Numbered from the stretch's first letter, positions 19,258-53,341 are shown. The stretch: 64,000 bases of DNA from Candidatus Aenigmatarchaeota archaeon (GCA_043814985.1 JBDRJK010000011.1:10710-74709); one strand, 5' to 3'. Made by a program: numbers and translations. The notes: generated from the letters alone by a model not told the origin.

Positions 19258-19921
19258 CTGTTATTTTTGTGCCTTCCAAAGTCTTCATGTTGTTTTGGAT
19301 GATTTCCTGCGGGACAGACGTTACTCCATGGAATGCCTTGCCCAAGTCCAGACCAAGGACATTTGCCATTGACACCAATTCCCTTGGTGCCCTCATGTCC
19401 CAGATGCTCTTGGCTCCTGAAGAGATTATGACCGGTGTCCTGTATTGGTTTGTCAGGTTGATGTTCTTTGTTATATGGTTGAGTATATATGACCTGGGCT
19501 TCCTGAAAGAGTAAAGAATCTCCCTGAAGTTTATCTGGATTGCCATGTTGTTCCTTGTGGCGCATGCCAAGCACACCTGATCCAAGCCGCTGTCTATTCT
19601 TCCCAACTCTGGGTGGGCAAGTATGTCCACCCTCGGGTCCTCGCATGCAGCCCTGTTAATATTATAGTTGCCTCCGGCGACAACAACAACCATGGCATTC
19701 TCCCTGGCCTTGGTTATCATTTCCTTTAGTTCGGGAACATTCTTTGCCTGTATGTAGGCCCCTGCATAGACTTCTGTATTAGTCTCAAGCTTGCTGATTG
19801 CTTCCTTTAGCTTGTCTATATTTTCCTTGTTCTCAAAGGTATCGCATATTGCTATTCCAGTGTATCCCAGCTTCTGCGCAAACTCGACTATCTCTTGTAG
19901 TGTATTATCACCGCTGGACAA
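19235..19921 (-). CDS. rnp3: RNase P protein component 3 (Rpp30, PHP/TIM-barrel)
   Basis: 228 aa; Rpp30-like; 23-nt overlap with rnp2; operon position. Confidence 0.75.
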   Translation of the reverse strand: MSSGDNTLQEIVEFAQKLGYTGIAICDTFENKENIDKLKEAISKLETNTEVYAGAYIQAKNVPELKEMITKARENAMVVVVAGGNYNINRAACEDPRVDILAHPELGRIDSGLDQVCLACATRNNMAIQINFREILYSFRKPRSYILNHITKNINLTNQYRTPVIISSGAKSIWDMRAPRELVSMANVLGLDLGKAFHGVTSVPQEIIQNNMKTLEGTKITDGVEVVD

Positions 19922-20081
19922 ATTGCTCTGGATGTGTAAGTCGTAAAATTTCGTTCAAATCACCTTTTTAGAATTTGCTTTTTAAGTTTAAAAAATAGGT
20001 TGGAAAAAAAGAATTGTCAATTTTAGTGTATATAATTCTATTACCTTTTTATACCTAGAATTTAAATAATTTTTAGATAGT

Positions 20082-20654
20082 ATGCCAAACATTACGGAAA
20101 GTATACAAAAAGAAATGAAGAGCTTACCTACTAATTTTGTACTTATGGTATTAGTCGATTCTATTAATTATTCAAAGGTTAATTTAGGTATACTTGATTA
20201 TATTATAAATAAAATGCAGGTAGGCGGAGTTTATATCTCTGTAAACAGGCCGGCTGACAGTATGATAAAAACCTTACAAGAAAAAAACATTAACACAAAA
20301 AAGATGTTTTTTATAGATTGTATATCCAAGACAGTCAGTGGAAAGATGGAGAGGAAAGAAAACATTTTATACGCAACCTCACCAGAGAACCTAACTGATA
20401 TTGGTTTTGCAATATCACAAATAATAAAATCGACAAAATCACCAGATTATTTTTTATTTTTGGATTCAGTTTCGACTCTGTTGATATATAATAGTGTAAG
20501 AAGCGTTGCCAAATTCAGCCATTTTTTAATAAATATAATAAGAATGAATAATTTAAAAGGGGTTGTAATGTCCGTAGAAAAGGAAACAGATAAATTTGTT
20601 AGGAGAACGCTCTATGTTTTATCTGATAAAGTAATCAATTTTGGAGGCAAATAG
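20082..20654 (+). CDS. KaiC/RecA-fold-like (DUF835-like) cytoplasmic protein, no Walker A evident
   Basis: 190 aa; beta-alpha pattern 'VLMVLVDS...GGVYISVNRP...FFIDCIS...FLFLDSVSTL'. Confidence 0.3.
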   Translation: MPNITESIQKEMKSLPTNFVLMVLVDSINYSKVNLGILDYIINKMQVGGVYISVNRPADSMIKTLQEKNINTKKMFFIDCISKTVSGKMERKENILYATSPENLTDIGFAISQIIKSTKSPDYFLFLDSVSTLLIYNSVRSVAKFSHFLINIIRMNNLKGVVMSVEKETDKFVRRTLYVLSDKVINFGGK

Positions 20655-21042
20655 TATGGCTCAAATCCCATTTTTATTAGGTGTAACTTCCTTGCTTATC
20701 ATGATGGTAGCAGTAGTAATATTTACTATTTCTTATAGAAGACTCTCGAAAGGAGAGTTCAAAAAAATTTTAAAATGGCTGCTACTCGGATTTTATTTCA
20801 TGGTAATTCCTTATAGTTTATTTGTAAGTCGGGAAATAGGTTTATTAGAAGAATATCACGAAACTATAAGTTTGACTATATATTCTTTCATGGTTATCAC
20901 AGGTTTATGTATTCTTAAATCGTCATTTGTATTAAATAATTTTTCAAAAATTTTTGGGTTTGCTGATATAGGAGAAGAGTTCTCCAAAACATTCACAGAT
21001 AATAGCAAAAATACAAGTAAGAGAAAAGAGGAGGCTGGGTGA
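20641..21042 (+). CDS. integral membrane protein (4 TM)
   Basis: Hydrophobic segments; 14-nt overlap with upstream gene. Confidence 0.4.
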   Translation: MEANSMAQIPFLLGVTSLLIMMVAVVIFTISYRRLSKGEFKKILKWLLLGFYFMVIPYSLFVSREIGLLEEYHETISLTIYSFMVITGLCILKSSFVLNNFSKIFGFADIGEEFSKTFTDNSKNTSKRKEEAG

Positions 21043-21043
21043 A

Positions 21044-21829
21044 ATGAAAAGAAATGAATTGATAGGAATTGGAGCGGCAATAGCCATGCCTCTTTTGATT
21101 TATGGAATTTCTAATTTACAAGGAATATACTTTACCTTTTCGTCTATAGTCCTGCATTTTATAATAGAACTTTTTAGCATTATTGTGGGAATAGTAATAT
21201 TTTACTTTGCAGTTCAAGGATTTAGAAAAACAGGAGACAGACAAATTCTCTTATTAGGTTCTGCATTCTTGCTGCTGGGATTGATTGATATGTTTCATAC
21301 ATTTGCTTTCAAGAATATGCCCGCTATCATTGTTCCTACTGGGGCAGCATATGCCACTTACTATTGGATTTTAAGCAAAGTATTTGGAGTAGTTTTATTG
21401 TTTCTAAGCATTTTACTACCTAATGCTGTTGTCAATGAAAAATATAGAAAAAAACTAGTTTCGTGTGCTACAGTAAGCATAGTCATCTTTTCGCTTTTCA
21501 TTGGCTGGTTTGTTGCAAATTATATTGAAATCTTACCTCCAGTTTTTATTGAAGGGGTAGGCCTAACTCCATTAAAGATATACTTGGAATATTCTGTAAT
21601 GCTTTTGCTTGCTGTAACTTCTTTAATCTGTTTAAGAATGTTCATGAAAACCGGCAACAAAGTGTTGTACTGGTTTATTCTCGGCTTCATTTTCTTTATA
21701 ATGAGCGAACTAAGCTTTACATTCTACAAAGACGTATGGGATACTTACATATGGCTAGGGCATCTGTTCAAAGTTGCTTCTTACAGCCTCTTTCTAATGG
21801 GATTAGTCCGATTGGGTAAAAAATCTTAA
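21044..21829 (+). CDS. polytopic membrane protein (7-8 TM), sensor-domain-like
   Basis: 261 aa; TM helices; 'LLGLIDMFHTFAF' motif; immediately follows 20641 gene. Confidence 0.45.
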   Translation: MKRNELIGIGAAIAMPLLIYGISNLQGIYFTFSSIVLHFIIELFSIIVGIVIFYFAVQGFRKTGDRQILLLGSAFLLLGLIDMFHTFAFKNMPAIIVPTGAAYATYYWILSKVFGVVLLFLSILLPNAVVNEKYRKKLVSCATVSIVIFSLFIGWFVANYIEILPPVFIEGVGLTPLKIYLEYSVMLLLAVTSLICLRMFMKTGNKVLYWFILGFIFFIMSELSFTFYKDVWDTYIWLGHLFKVASYSLFLMGLVRLGKKS

Positions 21830-21901
21830 TTACTTTTTCTCAGGCTCATTTCTCTTAAACCTAGCAAAAACTAACTAAATAGACAAGAGTTTAAGATAAG
21901 A

Positions 21902-25763: not shown

Positions 25764-26999
25764 ATGGATAATGGAATAGTTGATTTCTGGTCTTTACCCC
25801 ATGACAAAATTTATTTAAATTTAGAAAATGAATTAAAGGAAAAAATTTTCAATTCTTCAAAAGAATATGCTGGGAGCTGGAGCAAATTAGGAAAATGTCT
25901 TGGCCTTTCCCTAAACAAATATGGAAGCTGTAAAATTATAGAAAGTGCTAGATGTAAAAAATTTAGTTTATTTTTACTTGATAAAATTATAGATTATTTG
26001 AATTCTAATGGCGAGAAAATAGATAAGAAGAATATAGAAAAGAAAATAACAGTACTTTCCTCTAAAAGAGGAGGTTCAAACAAGTTAGCCAACAGTATTT
26101 TCAATCCAAAGATACCCTTTAATTTTAATACTGTTGACGGTGCTACTGTCCTTTCTTCCATTTTTTATGATGGTGGAATTAACAGCAACCTATTGCCTCA
26201 TTATAGTAATCCAGACAATGTAGAACTGAGGAAAAGTGTGTTCGATTCTTTCACAAATGTTTTTGGCACATTCAAATCTAAAAAAAGCAACCCCTTAGAA
26301 AATCCTCAGCTATACTTCCCAAAAATAGTCGGAGTAATTCTTGTTTATGGTTTAGGATTATCTTATGGAAGAAAAGTTGTAAATAATCCATCCATACCAG
26401 AATTCTTATTTGAATCCTCTGAAGAAATAAAATCATCATTTCTTCGACAAGCCTTTGATGATGAAGGCTCTGTCCACAAGACTAAAAGAAATATAAGTTT
26501 CAAATTGGCCTCTTCTTCTGAAAGACCTGCTAAACTTCTTACCGGTGTAAAATGTCTGTTAGAGAGTCTAAACATAGAGAGCAATGGTCCTCATTATGTT
26601 GATACATACAATACTAAGAACGGCATTACAGCTTCCAGATGGAGAATATCTGTAACACATCAAGATAATTTAAAAAAGTTTTATGAAAAAATTGGTTTTC
26701 ATTCATCCTATAAGAAAAATAGACTTAAGAATATTATTCATACATTAAAATACCCTCATTATTCTGTTAAAAATAGAAACAAAATTATTATAAAATCTTG
26801 CAGTGAACTTCAAAAAAGATACGGTTTTATAACTAGCAGAGAACTTGCAATACAAATCGACAGAAGTCGGGTCTTAGCTAAAAAGGTTATTCGAAAATTA
26901 GTAGATAGGAAAGTTCTCTTAGTTAAAGAATGCCGCCATGGAAATATGGGAGCTAAATATGTTTTAAGTGATAATTATGAATCTTTGTGTAAGATGTAA
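25764..26999 (+). CDS. LAGLIDADG-like double-motif endonuclease-like protein with C-terminal wHTH
   Basis: Motifs 'LSSIFYDGGIN' and 'SFLRQAFDDEGSV' (LAGLIDADG-like); C-terminal 'ITSRELAIQIDRSRVLAKKVIRKLVDRKVL'. Confidence 0.5.
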   Translation: MDNGIVDFWSLPHDKIYLNLENELKEKIFNSSKEYAGSWSKLGKCLGLSLNKYGSCKIIESARCKKFSLFLLDKIIDYLNSNGEKIDKKNIEKKITVLSSKRGGSNKLANSIFNPKIPFNFNTVDGATVLSSIFYDGGINSNLLPHYSNPDNVELRKSVFDSFTNVFGTFKSKKSNPLENPQLYFPKIVGVILVYGLGLSYGRKVVNNPSIPEFLFESSEEIKSSFLRQAFDDEGSVHKTKRNISFKLASSSERPAKLLTGVKCLLESLNIESNGPHYVDTYNTKNGITASRWRISVTHQDNLKKFYEKIGFHSSYKKNRLKNIIHTLKYPHYSVKNRNKIIIKSCSELQKRYGFITSRELAIQIDRSRVLAKKVIRKLVDRKVLLVKECRHGNMGAKYVLSDNYESLCKM

Positions 27000-28191
27000 A
27001 GGTACTAGGATTTTATGTGGAAAAAGTAGTTGTCCATTGTTGATAAAGTTCTATAGTTATATGAGAACTAAACCACTTATTGATTCGACTACTCTCAATG
27101 GTTCATCGCCACCAGCTTGCTTTGTAGGTTCTTATGGATATCCCAAGGTTTTCGTGGGGCCCTTGGTGCCGCCGAAACACGGTGACACCAGCTTCATGGA
27201 CACGCCTGAGATGTGGAGGGGCAAGACAATGTGGGACATAGTCGACTTCAGGTTCCAGCTGGTGAGGGGCAAGTTCGTGACTGATGTCAAGAACTTTGAG
27301 GGAAAGATAATCGAGCGGACTAGGGAGATTGCCCTGGCTCAGGAGTCTCCCAGTGCTGAGGTTGAGTTCAAGAACAAACCAAGAGGATTATCCTTTAACA
27401 GTGAGACACAGCCCTTTGGTCCGTCGGCAAATGTCATTGGCCTTAATATTGAAAACAAGGGCTACAACAAGAAAATAGAAAAAGCGTTCTACGACACTGA
27501 CCTGAAGGCTGTGCCTGCTGTTGTTGATCTTTACAAGAACGGCGTGCTGATTTCAAAAATACAGAAGGCTTTTTCTGTGGGTGCGTTTGGAATCGGAAAG
27601 AGCAGGAGATTCGTTCCAACGCGCTGGAGCATAACAGCTGTTGATGACATGATTTCAAAACATCTCATAGAGCAGGTAAAAACATTCCCGCTGATAAACG
27701 AGTATCTGGTTTACGAGCACGCTGCTTTGGACAACCGCTGGTTTGTTTTAATGATACCACACGAATGGAGTTACGAGCAGATGGAAGCGTGGTATCCCAA
27801 GACATTGTGGAACCCGTCTGATGCAATTGACATATCAACAGCATGGGAAGGTTTCAACGGACTAAAGGGCTATCCGGATACAGCTGGCTGCTACTTTTCC
27901 ACGAGGCTGGCTGCCACCGAGTACCTTGCCAATGAAAGGAGGCAGGCTGCTGTAATAGTATTCAGGGAAATCCATCCAGGTTACACTGTTCCTGTGGGTG
28001 TCTGGCACACCCGAGAGAGCATAAGGGATGCTGTCAAGAAAACTCCTGTTAGATTCAGCTCAATGAGTGGCGCCTTGGACTATCTGTCAAAGAAGATGAC
28101 CATACCTGTTAAGAGGTGGGTTGAAAAATCCAGTCTTCTTAGGAACCTGATGCGACAGAGAAAGCTGTCAGACTTCATCAAGCCTTTCTAA
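26968..28191 (+). CDS. NreA-like DNA repair protein (DUF650/DUF651)
   Basis: N-terminal 'CVRCKGTRILCGKSSCP' and 'PPACFVGSYGYP'; ~400 aa. Confidence 0.5.
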   Translation: MIIMNLCVRCKGTRILCGKSSCPLLIKFYSYMRTKPLIDSTTLNGSSPPACFVGSYGYPKVFVGPLVPPKHGDTSFMDTPEMWRGKTMWDIVDFRFQLVRGKFVTDVKNFEGKIIERTREIALAQESPSAEVEFKNKPRGLSFNSETQPFGPSANVIGLNIENKGYNKKIEKAFYDTDLKAVPAVVDLYKNGVLISKIQKAFSVGAFGIGKSRRFVPTRWSITAVDDMISKHLIEQVKTFPLINEYLVYEHAALDNRWFVLMIPHEWSYEQMEAWYPKTLWNPSDAIDISTAWEGFNGLKGYPDTAGCYFSTRLAATEYLANERRQAAVIVFREIHPGYTVPVGVWHTRESIRDAVKKTPVRFSSMSGALDYLSKKMTIPVKRWVEKSSLLRNLMRQRKLSDFIKPF

Positions 28192-48904: not shown

Positions 48905-50266
48905 ATGTTAAACAATTATTCTCCAAAAATAAGGAATGTTCTGAAAAAGGGTAAGATAAAGGTTGGAGACAGGATTTCTGTTACAAAAGGTAAGAAGACT
49001 TATGAGGGCCTGTTGATGCCTAGAGCCGAGATAGGAGATTTGAATTCTATTGTAATTAAATTGGATAATGGTTACAACATAGGCATAAGGTTTGAGAAAG
49101 GAACAAAAGTTAATAAGAGCAAGAAGAGAGAGCCCAGGAAAATCAAGGATGAGATGAAGTTCGAGATGGGTAAGGAGAAGTTCAAGAAACTGAAATTCGA
49201 TCCTAAGAAGCCTAAAGTAGCTCTTATAATGACTGGTGGAACTATTGCTTCTAGAGTTGATTACAAGACAGGCGGTGTCAGAGCCTTGGAAAAGCCAGAG
49301 GAGCTTGTGGCCAATGTTCCTGAACTGAAGGATATAATCTACATAAAGGATGTTTCCACTCCCTTTAGGAAGATGTCTGAGGACTTGGGTCCAAAGGACT
49401 GGCAGAAGTTGGCAAAGGTAGTAGCAAGAGAATTGAATAAAAACAGGGGAGTGATAATTGCTCATGGAACAGACACTATGCATTATACTGCTGCTGCCTT
49501 GTCTTTCATGCTGAAGAACGTCTCCAAGCCAGTTGTTTTAGTTGGTTCACAGAGGTCTTCTGACAGAGGAAGTTCTGATTCTTCAATGAACCTTATCTGC
49601 GCTGCCCATGTTGCCATATCAGACATCGGGGAAGTTGGAATATGCATGCACGGCTCAACAGACGACCATTACTGCTATTTCACAAGAGGAGTAAGTGCAC
49701 GAAAACTTCATAGTACCAGAAGAGATGCTTTTAAGTCAGTTAACGAGCCGCCCCTGGCAAAAGTCTTTCCAAGCGGCAAGATTTCAATTATTAACAAGAA
49801 TCATAAGAAAAGGGGTGATAAGAAAGTAATAGCTGATGTCAAGTTCGAGCCCAAGGTTGCTTTACTGAAAGTTTATCCAGGAAGCGATCCAGAGATTATG
49901 GAATTTTTGCTCAAGAAAGGCTACAAGGGATTTGTCATTGAGGGAACTGGAATGGGACATGTTCCTACATCAGCTGAAAAGTCCTGGATACCTACCATTA
50001 AGAAATTGACAAAGAAGGGCATACCAGTTGTCATCACAACGCAGACAATATACGGCAGGGTCAATCCTGATGTTTACACGAACCTGAGAATCCTGTTCCA
50101 CGAGGCAGGGGCGATTCCTGCGGAAGATATGCTTAGTGAAGTTGCATACATAAAACTTGGTTGGTTGCTAGCACATTATAAGAATATAAACGATGTAAGG
50201 AAAATGATGTTAACCAACATGGTGGGAGAAATAAGAGACAGGTCTACTATTGATTCCTTCTTTTAG
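48905..50266 (+). CDS. gatD: Glu-tRNA(Gln) amidotransferase subunit D
   Basis: Asparaginase-like 'IMTGGTIAS', 'AHGTDTMHYTAAALS'; N-terminal GatD-specific domain. Confidence 0.85.
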   Translation: MLNNYSPKIRNVLKKGKIKVGDRISVTKGKKTYEGLLMPRAEIGDLNSIVIKLDNGYNIGIRFEKGTKVNKSKKREPRKIKDEMKFEMGKEKFKKLKFDPKKPKVALIMTGGTIASRVDYKTGGVRALEKPEELVANVPELKDIIYIKDVSTPFRKMSEDLGPKDWQKLAKVVARELNKNRGVIIAHGTDTMHYTAAALSFMLKNVSKPVVLVGSQRSSDRGSSDSSMNLICAAHVAISDIGEVGICMHGSTDDHYCYFTRGVSARKLHSTRRDAFKSVNEPPLAKVFPSGKISIINKNHKKRGDKKVIADVKFEPKVALLKVYPGSDPEIMEFLLKKGYKGFVIEGTGMGHVPTSAEKSWIPTIKKLTKKGIPVVITTQTIYGRVNPDVYTNLRILFHEAGAIPAEDMLSEVAYIKLGWLLAHYKNINDVRKMMLTNMVGEIRDRSTIDSFF

Positions 50267-51458
50267 CAGAGAAGATGGAATCCCGGTTTTTAATGAAAAT
50301 TTTTACTGAATTCATATCCTTATTAATATTTTCCCTCCCTTCATTATTGACTTTCTTGTATTGTAGAATTTTATTTAAGAGTGCCAATTTTTTATACGGG
50401 TTTAATTCAAAGATGTCATTTTTGTATAGCTTCAGAAAACCATCTAGATTCGTTATTATAATTCTAGGAGGAGATGTTGATGTGGCCTTTGAAGGGGACG
50501 ACTTTATATCTAAAAGATTTAGGCATTGGTTTGCCACAGCTAATTCATTATTGTTAACTGAAGCGAATTGAACTGCTCTATCATAACTTCCTACGTAAGC
50601 CTCTCCGGCTAAATAACCTTTGAGATAGTATACTGCTAACTTTCTGTTGCCAATTACTTTCTCTTTAACATGCTCCAATAGTTTTAATATGACTCTTCTA
50701 AAGATGGTGTTATTGTAATAGATATCTGTAGAACCCCATGGAACATTTTTCCTCATCTTGCCCTTTGTATTTTTAGTATAGTGTGGCGAACTAGATTGCT
50801 CATTATTGGGACTTAATTTTGTAGTTTTTAGCCAAAACTCTCTAGATGCCTTTTCATCAGATTCTGTATACTTTCTCTTAAGTTTTCCATTGAAGATTAT
50901 TCTCCATTTCAGTTTTTCAGGGCTTATTTTAAAGAATTTGAAAAAATCTAAAATCCTTTGTATCATAACAGGTTCGCTGTTAACAAATTCTAAGCTCTTT
51001 GGATTAGTCTTTGTCGCTTCAGCCACTAACAGACCGCAAGAAGACACAATTAACTCATTTAAGGGTATTTCTTTAGGGATAAACATGTAATGATTTTTAT
51101 AGCCTTTGTTGTAGTGTGAAGTACTGTACCAAAGATATGAATAATTTTCTGGTACAACTTTTTTGATTTCTATCCTTTTTACCAGCCTCCATTTATCTGA
51201 GAATCTGAATGATTTATTGATTTTTCTTCCTTCCGTTCTTTTGACAATTTTCTTATTTTCAAGATTTGATAGGACTTTTCTTACTGTCCTCTTTTTATAG
51301 TTTGAGGACTTGTATATTTCTTTTGTTGTTTTGGAACCATCTTGCAACAAGTCCGTGACCCTCAAATCCAAAGGCATTTTGTCTATAATTTTTTCTCCAC
51401 TATTCGAGACTTTAATTTTACTGTCATTTTTTACCAATTCCTTTGTTAGAATTTTCAT
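50247..51458 (-). CDS. LAGLIDADG-like double-motif endonuclease-like protein with N-terminal wHTH
   Basis: 'CGLLVAEAT' and 'YLKGYLAGEAYVG' motifs; wHTH 'TKEIYKSSNYKKRTVRKVLSNLENKKIV'; sits between gatD and gatE, 20-nt overlap with gatD. Confidence 0.45.
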   Translation of the reverse strand: MKILTKELVKNDSKIKVSNSGEKIIDKMPLDLRVTDLLQDGSKTTKEIYKSSNYKKRTVRKVLSNLENKKIVKRTEGRKINKSFRFSDKWRLVKRIEIKKVVPENYSYLWYSTSHYNKGYKNHYMFIPKEIPLNELIVSSCGLLVAEATKTNPKSLEFVNSEPVMIQRILDFFKFFKISPEKLKWRIIFNGKLKRKYTESDEKASREFWLKTTKLSPNNEQSSSPHYTKNTKGKMRKNVPWGSTDIYYNNTIFRRVILKLLEHVKEKVIGNRKLAVYYLKGYLAGEAYVGSYDRAVQFASVNNNELAVANQCLNLLDIKSSPSKATSTSPPRIIITNLDGFLKLYKNDIFELNPYKKLALLNKILQYKKVNNEGRENINKDMNSVKIFIKNRDSIFSAKRRNQ

Positions 51459-51586
51459 ATATCTTAGTTCCTCTATCTATATTTAAAAAGTTTTGTACAA
51501 CTTATATAAGTGCTAAAAAAATGTTAATTGGTATTATGATAGATATTACAAAGAGGACAGAGATAGAGACTTTTATGGTGTAGAAA

Positions 51587-51898
51587 ATGGTAGAAATGAC
51601 AAAACAAGAAGAATTTTTAAATTTAATAGAGAAAATTGACGGAAAGAATCCAAGATTGTTTTTGGAACTGTTTATGAAAAAATATAATCATGAAATAACT
51701 GATTATTGTTATGTGACAAGTTGCGAGCACAATCATATTGAAGGTACTTCCCACAAAGCTTTCTTTTATGAGATATTGGACGGTTCCCAATTGTGGGTAA
51801 AGGATTCCATAGGTAAGATAGTCACCATATCTTACAATAATTACAGAAAAGATGTCATGGAAGTCTGGAGGGAGCGTCAAAAAAGGAGGAATGGCTAG
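51587..51898 (+). CDS. hypothetical protein (103 aa)
   Basis: ORF abutting gatE start. Confidence 0.3.
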   Translation: MVEMTKQEEFLNLIEKIDGKNPRLFLELFMKKYNHEITDYCYVTSCEHNHIEGTSHKAFFYEILDGSQLWVKDSIGKIVTISYNNYRKDVMEVWRERQKRRNG

Positions 51899-53341
51899 AT
51901 GACCGATTACAAAAAGATAGGTTTCAAATGTGGAATAGAAATTCATAATCGTCTAGACACGAAAACAAAACTGTTCTGCAACTGCAAACCAAGATTCTCT
52001 GAATCAAAACCAATCTCATTAATCAAGAGAAAACTCAGGGCAGTGGCAGGAGAAACTGGACAAGTGGATGTTGCTGCATTATATGAATATCTGAGAGATA
52101 GGACATTCTTCTACCAGTGCTATCCTGATGAAACATGTTTGATATGCATAGACGAGGAGCCTCCAAAGTCTGTAAACAAGGAAGCATTGAATGTTTCGTT
52201 GCAGGTAGCAAAGCTTTTGAAAGCGGAAATACCAGATGAAATCCATATAATGAGGAAAACTGTTATTGATGGTTCTAACACCTGCGCCTTCCAGAGAACA
52301 GCAATCGTAGGTATGAACGGAGTCTTGAAGACATCACAAGGAGACGTTGGAATAACTAATATTTCTTTGGAGGAAGAATCAGCAGGCAAAGTAAAAAAAG
52401 AAGGCAATGAACTAACCTACAGATTAGACAGATTGGGCATTCCTCTTGTTGAAATGGGGACAGCACCTGACATAAAGAGTCCTGAGCATGCAAAAGAAGT
52501 TGCTGAGAAGCTGGGAATGATGATAAGGTCAACAGGCAAGAGCCAGAGAGGTATTGGTGTTACAAGACAGGACGTCAATGTTTCAATCAAAGGTGGAGCA
52601 AGAGTCGAGATAAAGGGAGTTCAAGAATTGGACATGATACCCCAGCTGATTAATAATGAAATCAAGAGGCAGCAGGAAATGATAAAGAAAGGAAAGAAAC
52701 CCAAAGAAGAAACCAGAATAGCAAAAGCAGATGGGACAACCGAATTCACAAGGCCCCTGCCAGGAGGAGAACGATTATACCCGGAGACTGATCTGGAGAG
52801 CATTGTAATTACAAAGCCATTCCTTTCAAAGATAAAGGTTCCTGAGACATGGGACCAGAAGGCAAAAAGATTCAAGAACAAATTGCCAAAAGAAATGGTT
52901 GATCAAATACTAAGAAGCGAATACTTGGATTTGTTTGAAAAGTTTTCCAAAACTTACAATCCTGTTTTGGTTGCCAATACATTCACATCAACTGTAAAGG
53001 ACTTGAGTCGCCAAGGTCTTGAGACAGAATTTACTGAAGAACAGTTTGATAATATTTTCTCTTCTGTTAAGAACAAAACAATTTCAAAGGAAGCTATACC
53101 TAACATTCTGGAAATAGTTGCCAGGGAAAAAACTTCTGTTGAGCAGGCAATAAAGAAGAGCGGCCTCAAGGGCATGTCAGAGGATGATTTGAGAAAGATA
53201 GTGAAGAAAGTAATTGAAAAACACCCTAACCTAGTCGAGCAAAAAAGAATCCCCCCTCTAATGGGAATAGTAATGAAGGAAGTCAGGGGAAGGATATCTG
53301 GCAAGACAGTTGCTAAAATTCTGAACGAAGAATTAAAGTAA
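51899..53341 (+). CDS. gatE: Glu-tRNA(Gln) amidotransferase subunit E (short, GatB-sized)
   Basis: 'IGFKCGIEIHNRLDTKTKLFCNC' GatE/GatB N-terminus; C-terminal YqeY/GatB domain; partner gatD nearby. Confidence 0.7.
   Translation: MTDYKKIGFKCGIEIHNRLDTKTKLFCNCKPRFSESKPISLIKRKLRAVAGETGQVDVAALYEYLRDRTFFYQCYPDETCLICIDEEPPKSVNKEALNVSLQVAKLLKAEIPDEIHIMRKTVIDGSNTCAFQRTAIVGMNGVLKTSQGDVGITNISLEEESAGKVKKEGNELTYRLDRLGIPLVEMGTAPDIKSPEHAKEVAEKLGMMIRSTGKSQRGIGVTRQDVNVSIKGGARVEIKGVQELDMIPQLINNEIKRQQEMIKKGKKPKEETRIAKADGTTEFTRPLPGGERLYPETDLESIVITKPFLSKIKVPETWDQKAKRFKNKLPKEMVDQILRSEYLDLFEKFSKTYNPVLVANTFTSTVKDLSRQGLETEFTEEQFDNIFSSVKNKTISKEAIPNILEIVAREKTSVEQAIKKSGLKGMSEDDLRKIVKKVIEKHPNLVEQKRIPPLMGIVMKEVRGRISGKTVAKILNEELK

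What the first reader, a model, noticed from the sequence alone, without database searches (positions are those of the whole stretch)
50247..51458. Free-standing LAGLIDADG-like endonuclease-like gene wedged between gatD and gatE on the opposite strand
gatD and gatE are normally adjacent and co-transcribed in archaea. Here a 403-aa minus-strand gene separates them and overlaps the gatD 3' end by 20 nt. Its product has an N-terminal wHTH and two LAGLIDADG-like motifs, 'CGLLVAEAT' and 'YLKGYLAGEAYVG'. This could be a homing-endonuclease-like selfish insertion into an essential operon, or a domesticated DNA-binding derivative.
Basis: partly seen in the sequence, partly recalled or inferred. Interest (0 to 1): 0.6.

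Follow-up and report, generated by a model that had tools for sequence, protein, structure and literature searches.

The report
Homing-endonuclease cassette that re-tails archaeal gatD
The gene between gatD and gatE is a free-standing LAGLIDADG homing-endonuclease gene in a small mobile cassette that inserted into the end of the essential gatD gene, brought its own replacement gatD end, and left the original end behind as a dead remnant, an arrangement known from fungal mitochondria but, as far as I could find, not described in archaea.

Summary
A 403-aa minus-strand ORF (50247-51458) overlaps the gatD stop by 20 nt and encodes an N-terminal winged helix plus a double-LAGLIDADG core. The model has pLDDT 86, and its best PDB fold matches are I-DmoI and the endonuclease-associated TliVMA intein. 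The position-8 glutamates E147 and E286 are invariant down to 34% identity.

It is an insertion. Close Aenigmatarchaeota relatives have gatD-gatE or gatD-orf103-gatE with no such gene. The window keeps a remnant of the native gatD 3' end at 51539-51583, on the far side of the inserted gene. The working gatD carries a different tail, shared with another carrier genome.

All 21 distinct family loci recovered sit at the gatD 3' end. Thirteen of 19 tested keep a native-type gatD pseudo-end. In 10 of 12 Pacearchaeota/Woesearchaeota-type loci aligned, that pseudo-end starts at the same KLGW|VLGH codons.

The linked host marker GatE places carriers among non-carriers. The gene is under purifying selection (dN/dS 0.10-0.22), has low GC and lower dS than its flanks.

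Best reading: an active homing cassette that repairs its target. Nuclease activity is inferred, not shown. I rate it a new variant of a known kind (fungal mitochondrial mORFs). Interest is about 0.6.

The parts
50247..51458 (-). The inserted gene ('HL'): a 403-aa free-standing wHTH + double-LAGLIDADG protein, putatively a homing endonuclease.
   Evidence: The ORF is listed. Homologs of 374-410 aa (27 proteins counting the window's own, 36-71% identity) were found. The structure model has pLDDT 86.3 and pTM 0.85. Its PDB fold matches are I-DmoI, the endonuclease-associated TliVMA intein, the bI3 maturase and I-Tsp061I. dN/dS is 0.10-0.22. GC is 0.321 against a window mean of 0.403.
51222..51353 (-). 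Winged helix-turn-helix (aa 36-79), a likely accessory DNA-binding domain.
   Evidence: Pfam TrmB scores 27.4 bits, above its cut-off. A family profile hits MarR/ZitR-type wHTH chains in the PDB. Helices 30-40, 45-52 and 56-68 plus a beta wing appear in the model.
51018..51056 (-). LAGLIDADG helix 1 (aa 135-147), ending in the invariant E147; K150 follows.
   Evidence: The helix is in the DSSP of the model. G142, A146, E147 and K150 are invariant in 27 and in 14 more divergent sequences.
50601..50645 (-). LAGLIDADG helix 2 (aa 272-286), ending in the invariant E286; Q297 follows.
   Evidence: The helix is in the DSSP of the model. G281, G285, E286, A287 and Q297 are invariant. The weak Pfam LAGLIDADG_3 hit covers aa 277-345.
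50121..50266 (+). Cassette-linked replacement 3' end of gatD. This tract resembles the gatD of carrier genome L001 rather than that of the closest non-carrier L015, and ends in the variant tail ...GEIRDRSTIDSFF*.
   Evidence: Informative sites switch from L015-like to L001-like at about 50120. The C-termini are compared. The functional tail shares only 25/42 nt with the native L015 tail. GC is 0.349 here against 0.418 in the rest of gatD.
51459..51515 (-). The gene's own upstream region, with TATA-like boxes. It is conserved with the carrier relative L001, and similarity to L001 stops abruptly at ...GTGCTA.
   Evidence: The window and L001 were aligned. The reading as an archaeal promoter is my inference from the A/T-rich TTTAAA/TATATAA boxes.
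51539..51583 (+). Remnant (pseudo-3' end) of the native gatD: IDITKRTEIETFMV*. It was displaced by the insertion and now lies just upstream of orf103. It may extend back to 51516.
   Evidence: It shares 35/45 nt with the functional gatD end of non-carrier L015, and 23/24 over the last 24 nt. Its protein-level score is 63 against a shuffle maximum of 40.
48905..50266 (+). gatD, the target and host gene (453 aa). It remains intact through the cassette-borne tail.
   Evidence: NCBIfam GatD equivalog, 522 bits. Pfam GatD_N plus both Asparaginase domains.
51587..51898 (+). orf103, a small conserved ORF that abuts gatE. It belongs to the native gatD-orf103-gatE arrangement, not to the cassette.
   Evidence: In L015 it lies directly between gatD and gatE, at 86% aa and 278/312 nt identity. 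It has no Pfam or NCBIfam match.
51899..53341 (+). gatE (480 aa), the downstream host gene.
   Evidence: NCBIfam GatE equivalog, 573 bits. It groups with non-carrier L015 in 199/200 bootstraps.

Best explanation
The gene belongs to a mobile cassette of about 1.4 kb. The cassette has three parts: a replacement gatD 3' end, the wHTH-LAGLIDADG gene (HL) on the opposite strand, and that gene's own short promoter.

Shown:
- The cassette is inserted inside the 3' end of gatD.
- The displaced native gatD end survives beyond the cassette as a pseudo-end.
- The same architecture recurs at the same gatD codons in different host backgrounds across DPANN archaea.
- The gene is intact and under purifying selection everywhere it was found.

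Inferred:
- The protein is an active monomeric LAGLIDADG homing endonuclease. Its wHTH extends DNA recognition.
- It cuts cassette-free gatD alleles near the conserved KLGW|VLGH codons. In the window's Aenigmatarchaeota-type cassette the displaced remnant begins 11-21 codons further downstream, so the junction may differ or the remnant may be partly deleted.
- Double-strand-break repair from a carrier allele copies the cassette, co-converts the neighbouring part of gatD, and leaves the resident tail stranded.
- The cassette-borne tail keeps GatD functional and presumably makes the allele resistant to cutting. This would let a selfish element live in an essential gene without an intron or intein.
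For: Fold and active-site motifs:
- The model has pLDDT 86.3 and pTM 0.85.
- Foldseek top PDB hits are all LAGLIDADG proteins. I-DmoI gives TM 0.69-0.70 at probability 1.0.
- E147, K150, E286 and Q297 are invariant down to 34% identity.
- LAGLIDADG_3 matches 26/27 members.

Insertion:
- Empty sites occur in relatives: L017 (gatD-21 nt-gatE) and L015 (gatD-orf103-gatE).
- The native-type remnant lies at 51539-51583.
- The window's gatD switches from L015-like to carrier-like (L001) at about 50120.
- The cassette is a low-GC island.

Site specificity:
- 21 of 21 distinct loci carry the gene at the gatD 3' end: 20 convergent and abutting, 1 co-directional.
- Other neighbours vary.
- The remnant begins at the W|V codons of KLGWVLGH, within a few nt, in 10 Pace-type loci. 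It follows a conserved cassette end of about 42 nt.

Foreign tail versus native remnant:
- 13/19 occupied loci keep a remnant, scoring 63-145 against shuffle maxima of 54 or less.
- Cassette-borne tails are uniformly 114 nt. Remnants copy the 84-nt or 99-102-nt tails of different non-carrier lineages. For example, the L009 remnant shares 81/101 nt with the L025 native tail.

Horizontal spread:
- In the GatE tree carriers are interleaved with non-carriers. L009+L025 is supported 200/200, WIN+L015 199/200, and a clade of all carriers 0/200.
- In the GatD tree the 8 Pace-type carriers group together (120/200).
- The C-terminal half of carrier gatD resembles other carriers rather than the GatE sister.
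- HL dS (0.63-1.08) is lower than that of gatE and the gatD 5' half for the same genome pairs.
- HL identity is uncorrelated with GatE identity (r=0.06).

Functional gene:
- dN/dS is 0.10-0.22 and no pseudogenised copy was seen.

Precedent:
- Fungal mitochondrial mORFs have the same inserted C-terminus, endonuclease ORF and native C*-terminus layout. Endonuclease-driven mobility was shown biochemically for the Allomyces element (PMC3630166).
Against: - No cleavage activity or target site was tested. LAGLIDADG proteins can lose nuclease activity and become maturases or regulators.
- No degenerate copies were found, and conservation is strong. That pattern is also what a host-beneficial, domesticated gene would show.
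- The 8 Pace-type carriers form one clade for GatD, although support is only 60%. A single old insertion plus vertical descent could explain part of the distribution.
- The trees are NJ trees on single proteins.
- The dS comparison may be biased by the AT-rich composition of the gene.
- Some carrier alleles (e.g. L004) have the same DNA as empty alleles at the presumed junction, so the basis of immunity is unclear.
- The window-type remnant starts 11-21 codons downstream of the Pace-type junction, so the insertion point may not be identical.
- Six of 19 loci show no clear remnant. Two of those had too little upstream sequence to test.
- The sample of empty sites was chosen by peptide patterns of the window's GatD, so carrier frequency cannot be estimated.
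Confidence: 0.7

Rival explanations
1. It is a domesticated LAGLIDADG DNA-binding protein, analogous to WhiA. An old homing-endonuclease insertion at gatD has been kept by the host as a transcription factor or chromatin protein, is inherited vertically, and is no longer mobile.
For: - The wHTH fusion is typical of archaeal regulators.
- Every copy is intact, with dN/dS of 0.10-0.22.
- Databases name some members DeoR/HTH regulators.
- WhiA appears among the fold hits.
- The Pace-type carriers form one GatD clade, 120/200.
Against: - Both motif glutamates, plus K150 and Q297, are invariant. From my own knowledge, WhiA has lost these residues.
- The distribution is patchy, and close relatives have clean empty sites.
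- Carriers are interleaved with non-carriers for the linked host marker GatE.
- Remnants match different native lineages, while the cassette tail is uniform.
- The gene sits at the 3' end of gatD, not near any promoter. In one locus it is in the opposite orientation but still at the gatD end.
- Its GC is low.
Confidence: 0.17
2. It is a functional partner or regulator of the GatDE amidotransferase. It could be an RNA- or tRNA-binding maturase-like protein, or an antisense or convergent-transcription regulator of gatD. On this reading the linkage to gatD reflects function rather than targeting.
For: - Linkage to gatD is strict in 21/21 loci.
- The tail-to-tail overlap (from 2-nt gaps up to 55-nt overlaps) forces convergent transcripts.
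- Some LAGLIDADG proteins bind RNA; the bI3 maturase is among the fold hits.
- A second LAGLIDADG family in the same window is likewise always next to one host gene, Nre.
Against: - Most DPANN gatD loci lack the gene entirely (0/20). GatDE therefore does not need it.
- This reading does not explain the duplicated gatD tails, the native remnants or the uniform cassette tail.
- Orientation is not fixed.
Confidence: 0.06
3. It is an integrase- or transposase-type element, or an intron- or intein-encoded endonuclease, rather than a free-standing homing cassette.
For: Replacement of a gene's 3' end with a displaced direct repeat resembles integration of integrative elements into tRNA or protein genes.
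Against: - The insert holds a single gene and no integrase or transposase.
- No terminal inverted repeats were found.
- No tRNA and no intron RNA family reach significance.
- The gene is on the strand opposite to gatD, so it cannot be an in-frame intein.
- Pfam finds only wHTH and LAGLIDADG.
Confidence: 0.02

Closest known systems
Fungal mitochondrial mobile ORF elements (mORFs) with a carried C-terminus: Allomyces macrogynus atp6; Glomus sp. atp6, atp9, cox2, nad3; Rhizopus atp9; Mortierella cox2 (PMC3630166)
   Same: - A LAGLIDADG (or GIY-YIG) endonuclease ORF is inserted in the 3' part of an essential gene.
- The element brings a divergent, foreign copy of the gene's C-terminal coding region, which is the one used.
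- The native C*-terminus is left downstream as an unused duplicate. It is more similar to the gene of close relatives than the inserted copy is.
- Distribution is patchy and implies horizontal transfer.
   Different: - This case is in archaeal (DPANN) chromosomes, not organelles.
- The target is gatD.
- The endonuclease gene is on the opposite strand with its own promoter. In the mitochondrial cases it is fused in phase or co-transcribed.
- The protein carries an N-terminal wHTH.
- One cassette family is locked to one site across at least two DPANN lineages, at 33-78% protein identity.
I-DmoI and other archaeal monomeric double-motif LAGLIDADG homing endonucleases (I-Tsp061I and the homing-endonuclease-associated TliVMA intein)
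   Same: - It has a two-domain alpha-beta-beta-alpha-beta-beta-alpha pseudo-dimer fold (TM 0.69-0.70 on I-DmoI).
- An acidic residue sits at position 8 of each LAGLIDADG helix.
- An E-x-x-K and a downstream Q recall E117/K120 and Q42 of I-DmoI. Those residue names come from PDB entry titles; the mapping is my inference.
   Different: - Sequence identity is only 10-12%.
- The gene is free-standing, not intron- or intein-encoded.
- About 130 extra N-terminal residues (wHTH plus a beta-hairpin region) and a long C-terminal helix are present.
- Both acidic residues are glutamate.
Free-standing homing endonucleases of phages (intronless homing such as T4 SegF/SegG; collaborative homing in cyanophage psbA). 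This comparison rests on my own knowledge.
   Same: An endonuclease gene without intron or intein lies next to the gene it targets. It spreads by break repair with co-conversion of flanking markers.
   Different: - Those enzymes are mostly GIY-YIG or HNH and sit between genes.
- They do not replace the end of the target gene or leave a displaced remnant.
- Their hosts are phages.
WhiA (DUF199): a bacterial LAGLIDADG + HTH transcription factor
   Same: It combines a LAGLIDADG scaffold with a helix-turn-helix DNA-binding domain. It appears among the fold hits (3hyi and 3hyj).
   Different: - In WhiA the HTH is C-terminal.
- WhiA has lost the catalytic acidic residues and is near-universal and vertically inherited in Gram-positive bacteria (my own knowledge).
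- Here the wHTH is N-terminal, the glutamates are invariant and the distribution is patchy.

Membership tests
LAGLIDADG homing endonuclease superfamily (Pfam LAGLIDADG_3 / I-DmoI-like fold) | Two LAGLIDADG helices packed at the centre of an alpha-beta-beta-alpha-beta-beta-alpha x2 pseudo-dimer. | tested here: met
   The model has pLDDT 86.3 and pTM 0.85, with helices 135-147 and 272-286 each followed by beta strands. Foldseek top hits are I-DmoI, the TliVMA intein, bI3 and I-Tsp061I at probability 1.0.
LAGLIDADG homing endonuclease superfamily (Pfam LAGLIDADG_3 / I-DmoI-like fold) | A sequence-profile match to a curated LAGLIDADG model. | tested here: met
   The window protein alone is sub-threshold (E=0.063, 14 bits against a 22.5-bit cut-off). 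However, 26/27 family members match LAGLIDADG_3 at E<=0.01, the best at 6e-14.
LAGLIDADG homing endonuclease superfamily (Pfam LAGLIDADG_3 / I-DmoI-like fold) | A conserved acidic metal-binding residue at the C-terminal end of each LAGLIDADG helix. | tested here: met
   E147 and E286 are invariant in 27 sequences and in 14 sequences down to 34% identity. They lie at the last helix positions.
LAGLIDADG homing endonuclease superfamily (Pfam LAGLIDADG_3 / I-DmoI-like fold) | Site-specific double-strand cleavage of a long (about 20-bp) target. | not testable with these tools
   This needs purified protein and gatD substrates.
Mobile homing element (population-genetic definition) | Patchy presence at one conserved site, with clean empty sites in relatives. 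| tested here: met
   The gene is present at the gatD 3' end in 21/21 loci. It is absent from 20/20 GatD loci of species representatives. Empty sites are L017 and L015, and gatD-> <-DUF1003 in L029 and L030 against gatD-> <-HL <-DUF1003 in L002.
Mobile homing element (population-genetic definition) | Co-conversion of flanking target sequence and a phylogeny incongruent with the host. | tested here: met
   The breakpoint lies at about 50120. The GatE and GatD trees conflict, with bootstraps. Sliding windows are. dS rises in the order HL, gatD 3' half, then gatD 5' half and gatE. Caveat: these are NJ trees on single genes, and composition is AT-biased.
mORF-type element with carried C-terminus (fungal mitochondria) | The target gene's 3' coding end is duplicated on both sides of the endonuclease ORF. 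| tested here: met
   In the window the functional tail is 50225-50266 and the remnant is 51539-51583. Remnants occur in 13/19 loci.
mORF-type element with carried C-terminus (fungal mitochondria) | The inserted end is divergent or foreign, and the native remnant is closer to the gene of relatives. | tested here: met
   In the window the remnant shares 35/45 nt with L015 against 25/42 nt for the functional tail. The L009 remnant shares 81/101 nt with L025. Cassette tails are uniformly 114 nt, while remnants are 84 or 99-102 nt like the local native types.
mORF-type element with carried C-terminus (fungal mitochondria) | The endonuclease ORF is in phase with, or co-transcribed with, the host gene. 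| tested here: not met
   The gene is on the opposite strand in 20/21 loci and has its own conserved upstream block. In the one co-directional locus it is separated from gatD by 172 nt.
WhiA-like domesticated LAGLIDADG regulators | Loss of the catalytic acidic residues, a C-terminal HTH, and near-universal vertical inheritance. | tested here: not met
   The glutamates are invariant. The wHTH is N-terminal. The distribution is patchy.
Intein- or group-I-intron-encoded endonuclease | The gene is embedded in a splicing element (Hint domain in frame, or intron RNA). | tested here: not met
   The gene is on the strand opposite to gatD. No Hint domain was found. No Rfam intron family reaches E<=1.

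The most novel reading that the evidence does not exclude
DPANN archaea host a lineage of free-standing wHTH-LAGLIDADG homing endonucleases that invade the essential gatD gene without an intron or intein. They do so by carrying a replacement gene end. On this reading the cassette moves horizontally between Aenigmatarchaeota and Nanoarchaeota-type (Pacearchaeota/Woesearchaeota) genomes, drags gatD sequence with it, and so drives mosaic evolution of an essential translation gene. It would be the first chromosomal prokaryotic counterpart of the mitochondrial mORF strategy. It would also be a natural two-module (wHTH + LAGLIDADG) meganuclease scaffold.
Probability: 0.55. Interest if true: 0.7.

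Novelty: new variant of a known kind. Interest (0 to 1): 0.6.

Why it matters
Homing endonucleases are thought to survive in essential genes by hiding in self-splicing introns or inteins. This cassette shows a third strategy in cellular prokaryotic chromosomes: replace the part of the gene you destroy. Until now that strategy was documented for fungal mitochondria (PMC3630166).

If the nuclease is active, four things follow:
- It explains why gatD and gatE are split in some DPANN genomes.
- It provides a mechanism for localised horizontal exchange inside an essential translation gene of ultra-small, host-dependent archaea.
- It supplies a datable marker of DNA exchange between DPANN lineages, through the remnant types.
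- It adds a compact wHTH-LAGLIDADG architecture of possible use for meganuclease engineering.

For annotation, family members are currently named 'HTH domain-containing protein', 'DeoR family regulator' or 'hypothetical'. The displaced gatD pseudo-ends are not recognised.

Tried and rejected
- Sequence search of the PDB with the single protein and with the family profile found only wHTH regulators. It found no LAGLIDADG chain. Only the fold comparison identified the core.
- No family member was found on viral contigs, so no vector for transfer was identified.
- No terminal inverted repeats or significant direct repeats bound the insert, apart from the diverged gatD tails. This rejects a transposon reading.
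- No tRNA and no Rfam family were found. This rejects intron and tRNA-integration readings.
- I first read the remnant as extending 22 codons ('KKMLIGIM...'). The upstream 27 nt are only 11/27 identical to the native sequence, so only 51539-51583 is claimed firmly.
- A possible short remnant in L001 ('CTTGGTGTGAAAGATG') is too short to assess.
- For the second LAGLIDADG gene (25764-26999), I tested whether a duplicated Nre end flanks it. The window gave a marginal match (8/500 shuffles reach it) and relatives gave none, so I do not claim one.
- One context look-up failed because the protein was not on record (P0020). Its locus was recovered later as L042.
Full report
**1. Observation**

The window holds a 403-aa ORF on the minus strand at 50247-51458.
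- gatD runs 48905-50266 on the plus strand (NCBIfam GatD equivalog, 522 bits). gatE runs 51899-53341 (GatE equivalog, 573 bits).
- The ORF overlaps the gatD stop region by 20 nt, tail to tail.
- A 103-aa ORF (51587-51898) abuts the gatE start.
- The ORF product is 100% identical to an NCBI protein of a Candidatus Aenigmatarchaeota MAG, annotated only as an HTH-domain protein.

**2. The protein**

- Pfam finds a TrmB-type winged helix at aa 36-79, above threshold. It also finds a sub-threshold LAGLIDADG_3 match at aa 277-345.
- The 27 proteins found (the window's own plus 26 homologs, 36-71% identity to it) are all 374-410 aa. Twenty-six of the 27 match LAGLIDADG_3 at E<=0.01, the best at 6e-14.
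- An AlphaFold2 model built on that alignment is confident (pLDDT 86.3, pTM 0.85). It shows two long helices, 135-147 and 272-286, each followed by beta strands.
- Foldseek against the PDB returns only LAGLIDADG proteins at the top. These are the homing-endonuclease-associated TliVMA intein, I-DmoI (TM 0.69-0.70 on the target), the bI3 maturase, I-Tsp061I, E-DreI and WhiA.
The family consensus is GFFDAEGSK and YLRGYFAGEAYVG.
- E147 and E286 occupy position 8 of the motifs, at the helix ends. They are invariant, together with G142, A146, K150, G281, G285 and Q297, in 27 sequences and in a broader set down to 34% identity.
- The E-x-x-K and downstream Q recall E117/K120 and Q42 of I-DmoI. Those residue names come from the PDB titles; the mapping is my inference.
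- The active-site signature is therefore retained. From my own knowledge, WhiA has lost it.
- A profile search of 1.84 billion representatives finds 454 LAGLIDADG relatives. Only about ten 50%-identity clusters share the full wHTH + core architecture.

**3. It is an insertion inside gatD**

I searched GTDB species representatives with the window's GatD and obtained 20 loci. None encodes a relative of the gene (tblastn).

Among close Aenigmatarchaeota relatives:
- L017 has gatD followed by gatE after 21 nt.
- L015 has gatD-orf103-gatE. Its GatE is 85% identical to the window's and its orf103 is 86% identical.

Aligning L015 to the window gives three segments:
- The gatD sequences match up to codons ...GEI, near 50236.
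- The window then continues with a different tail (RDRSTIDSFF*). That tail is shared with L001, a genome that also carries the gene (RDRSTIDSSY*).
- The native tail reappears at 51539-51583 (IDITKRTEIETFMV*). It shares 35/45 nt with L015, and 23/24 over the last 24 nt. It sits immediately before orf103, exactly as in L015.

Further signs of foreign origin:
- The functional tail shares only 25/42 nt with the native one.
- Informative sites show the window's gatD is mostly L015-like until about 50120 and L001-like from there to the stop. GC drops from 0.418 to 0.349 at the same place.
- The gene itself has GC 0.321 against 0.403 for the window. That places it in the lowest 3.5% of equally long windows.
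- A 57-nt block upstream of the gene (51459-51515), with TATA-like boxes, is conserved with L001. Homology then ends abruptly.

The inserted unit is therefore: replacement gatD end, the gene on the opposite strand, and its promoter. No inverted repeats, tRNA or intron RNA are present.

**4. The architecture is general and site-specific**

- Context look-ups and a metagenome scan gave 21 distinct loci with a family member.
- In 20 of them gatD is convergent and abutting. The spacing ranges from a 2-nt gap to a 55-nt overlap, and this holds down to 33% protein identity.
- In one locus (L054) gatD is co-directional, 172 nt upstream.
- Other neighbours differ. gatE may lie on either side or be absent.
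- In 13 of 19 loci tested, the region just upstream of the gene holds a gatD pseudo-3' end in gatD orientation. Scores are 63-145 against shuffle maxima of 54 or less.
- In the Pacearchaeota/Woesearchaeota-type loci a conserved cassette end of about 42 nt (...AAACTATTTAAAYYTTTCTAT...) is followed directly by the remnant.
- In 10 of the 12 such loci aligned, the remnant starts within a few nt of the W|V codons of the conserved KLGWVLGH motif.
- All cassette-borne functional tails are 114 nt (...KEWAKNKEKIKEIMLKDFCGEINKRILxETFLY*). The remnants reproduce the 84-nt or 99-102-nt native tails of different non-carrier lineages.
- Examples: the L009 remnant shares 81/101 nt with the L025 native tail, and the L011 and L034 remnants match the short L031 type, including its terminal RLEK*.
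- Matching occupied and empty configurations also exist in this group. L029 and L030 have gatD-> <-DUF1003, while L002, L007 and L011 have gatD-> <-gene <-DUF1003.

**5. Evidence for horizontal spread**

- GatE is the linked host gene beyond the remnant. In its tree, carriers are interleaved with non-carriers. L009+L025 is supported 200/200, window+L015 199/200, and L039+L028+L030 199/200. A clade of all carriers gets 0/200.
- In the GatD tree the eight Pace-type carriers group together, 120/200.
- Sliding windows show the C-terminal half of carrier GatD resembles other carriers rather than the GatE sister.
- For the same genome pairs, synonymous divergence of the gene (0.63-1.08) is lower than that of the gatD 3' half. 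The gatD 5' half and gatE are higher still, at 0.93-3.2 or saturated. AT-rich composition may bias this comparison.
- Identity of the gene between carriers does not track GatE identity (r=0.06).
- The gene is under purifying selection (dN/dS 0.10-0.22). No decayed copy was seen.

**6. Mechanism (inferred)**

This is the pattern described for mobile endonuclease ORFs of fungal mitochondria. In Allomyces atp6 and Glomus atp6, atp9, cox2 and nad3, an inserted foreign C-terminus and an endonuclease ORF are followed by the native C*-terminus. Endonuclease-driven mobility was shown biochemically for the Allomyces element (PMC3630166).

I therefore propose the following sequence:
- The protein cuts cassette-free gatD near the insertion point.
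- Repair from a carrier allele copies the cassette. The left crossover falls inside gatD, which produces the co-conversion.
- The right end pairs with, or joins to, the resident tail, which survives as the remnant.
- The carried tail keeps GatD whole and presumably resistant to cutting.

Three points remain unshown or unexplained:
- Cleavage, the exact target and the basis of immunity are not shown.
- Some carrier alleles are identical to empty ones at the junction.
- The window-type remnant begins 11-21 codons downstream of the Pace-type junction. This is either a different junction or a later deletion.

**7. Rivals**

- A domesticated regulator (WhiA-like) would explain the wHTH and the intactness. 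It would not explain the invariant glutamates, the empty sites, the host-type remnants or the 3'-end location.
- A GatDE partner or antisense regulator would explain the linkage. It would not explain absence from most gatD loci or the duplicated tails.
- Transposon, integrase, intron and intein readings fail on content and strand.

**8. Comparison and novelty**

- Full-text searches found no paper combining LAGLIDADG with gatD. None of the six papers that mention both LAGLIDADG and DPANN describes this arrangement, judged from their titles and abstracts.
- The protein belongs to the LAGLIDADG superfamily, a known kind.
- The element works like a mitochondrial mORF, but it differs in four ways. 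It is in archaeal chromosomes. It is on the opposite strand with its own promoter. It has a wHTH fusion. It forms one family fixed on gatD across DPANN lineages.
- I rate it a new variant of a known kind, with interest of about 0.6.

Noticed in passing
window 25764-26999 (+), with Nre at 26968-28191 (+): A second free-standing LAGLIDADG_3 gene (411 aa, E=1.9e-8) lies in another low-GC island. Its C-terminus looks like a wHTH (WhiA-like order). It overlaps the start of the archaeal Nre gene by 32 nt. It is only remotely related to the gatD-linked family. Its own family (17 hits) sits next to Nre in 3/3 contexts: co-directional upstream in two, and convergent in one member at 44% identity. No convincing duplicated Nre end was found.
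   Followed up: partly
window 51899-53341 (+): GatE here is 480 aa. The NCBIfam GatE models (622-630 positions) match it in two stretches, the best ending at residue 263 of the protein and position 265 of the 630-position model. This suggests it lacks the internal insertion domain of canonical GatE. The same short form (about 453-484 aa) occurs in all DPANN loci examined.
   Followed up: no
window 51587-51898 (+); L015 1053-1364: A 103-aa ORF is tightly coupled to gatE (its stop overlaps the gatE start, ATGA). It is 86% identical in relative L015, where it sits between gatD and gatE. It has no Pfam or NCBIfam match. It is Cys/His-rich in its middle part (CYVTSCEHNH). Function unknown.
   Followed up: partly
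L017 1-737: This cassette-free relative has a hybrid gatD end. The upstream part matches the carrier type (KLGWLLAHYKDI...). The last codons are native type (...GEITRRSEVETFLV*). gatE follows after 21 nt and there is no orf103. This is the product expected if a cassette were lost by recombination between the carried tail and the remnant, but that was not tested.
   Followed up: no
L002 8572-9954; L004 8520-9881; L007 9362-10735; L009 9801-11165: In Pacearchaeota/Woesearchaeota-type loci a second GatB_N/GatB_Yqey protein lies divergently upstream of gatD. It is 453-460 aa and only 26-28% identical to the window GatE. The true GatE orthologue (40-43% identical) lies elsewhere, next to an AspRS-like gene.
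   Followed up: no
L002 12554-13158 (-): Another LAGLIDADG_3 gene is called about 5 kb from the gatD-linked one in the same Pace-type genome. DPANN genomes may carry several such genes.
   Followed up: no
L050 806-1897 and L051 1472-2563: A distant relative of the LAGLIDADG core (P0037, 363 aa, matches only from about aa 100 of the family profile, i.e. not the wHTH part) lies co-directionally upstream of a PEP-utilising enzyme (PPDK/PEP synthase-like) gene and overlaps it by 20 nt. It may be another gene-specific association.
   Followed up: no
window 19600-21900: A third low-GC island (down to 0.29) holds a DUF835/DUF7504 protein, an unassigned 133-aa ORF and a MASE3 membrane sensor. No endonuclease was detected.
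   Followed up: partly
L023 (JBAZBJ010000018.1): A contig labelled 'Parcubacteria group bacterium' carries archaeal-type gatD and gatE that are 47% and 42% identical to the window's. It is probably a mis-binned DPANN contig.
   Followed up: no
L015 and L018 (same MAG, CAYQXC01): Two contigs of one MAG each end inside gatD and cover overlapping parts of it (aa 107-453 and aa 1-353), at different identity to the window. One shows an apparent frameshift. The assembly may have broken at gatD because of strain-level polymorphism.
   Followed up: no
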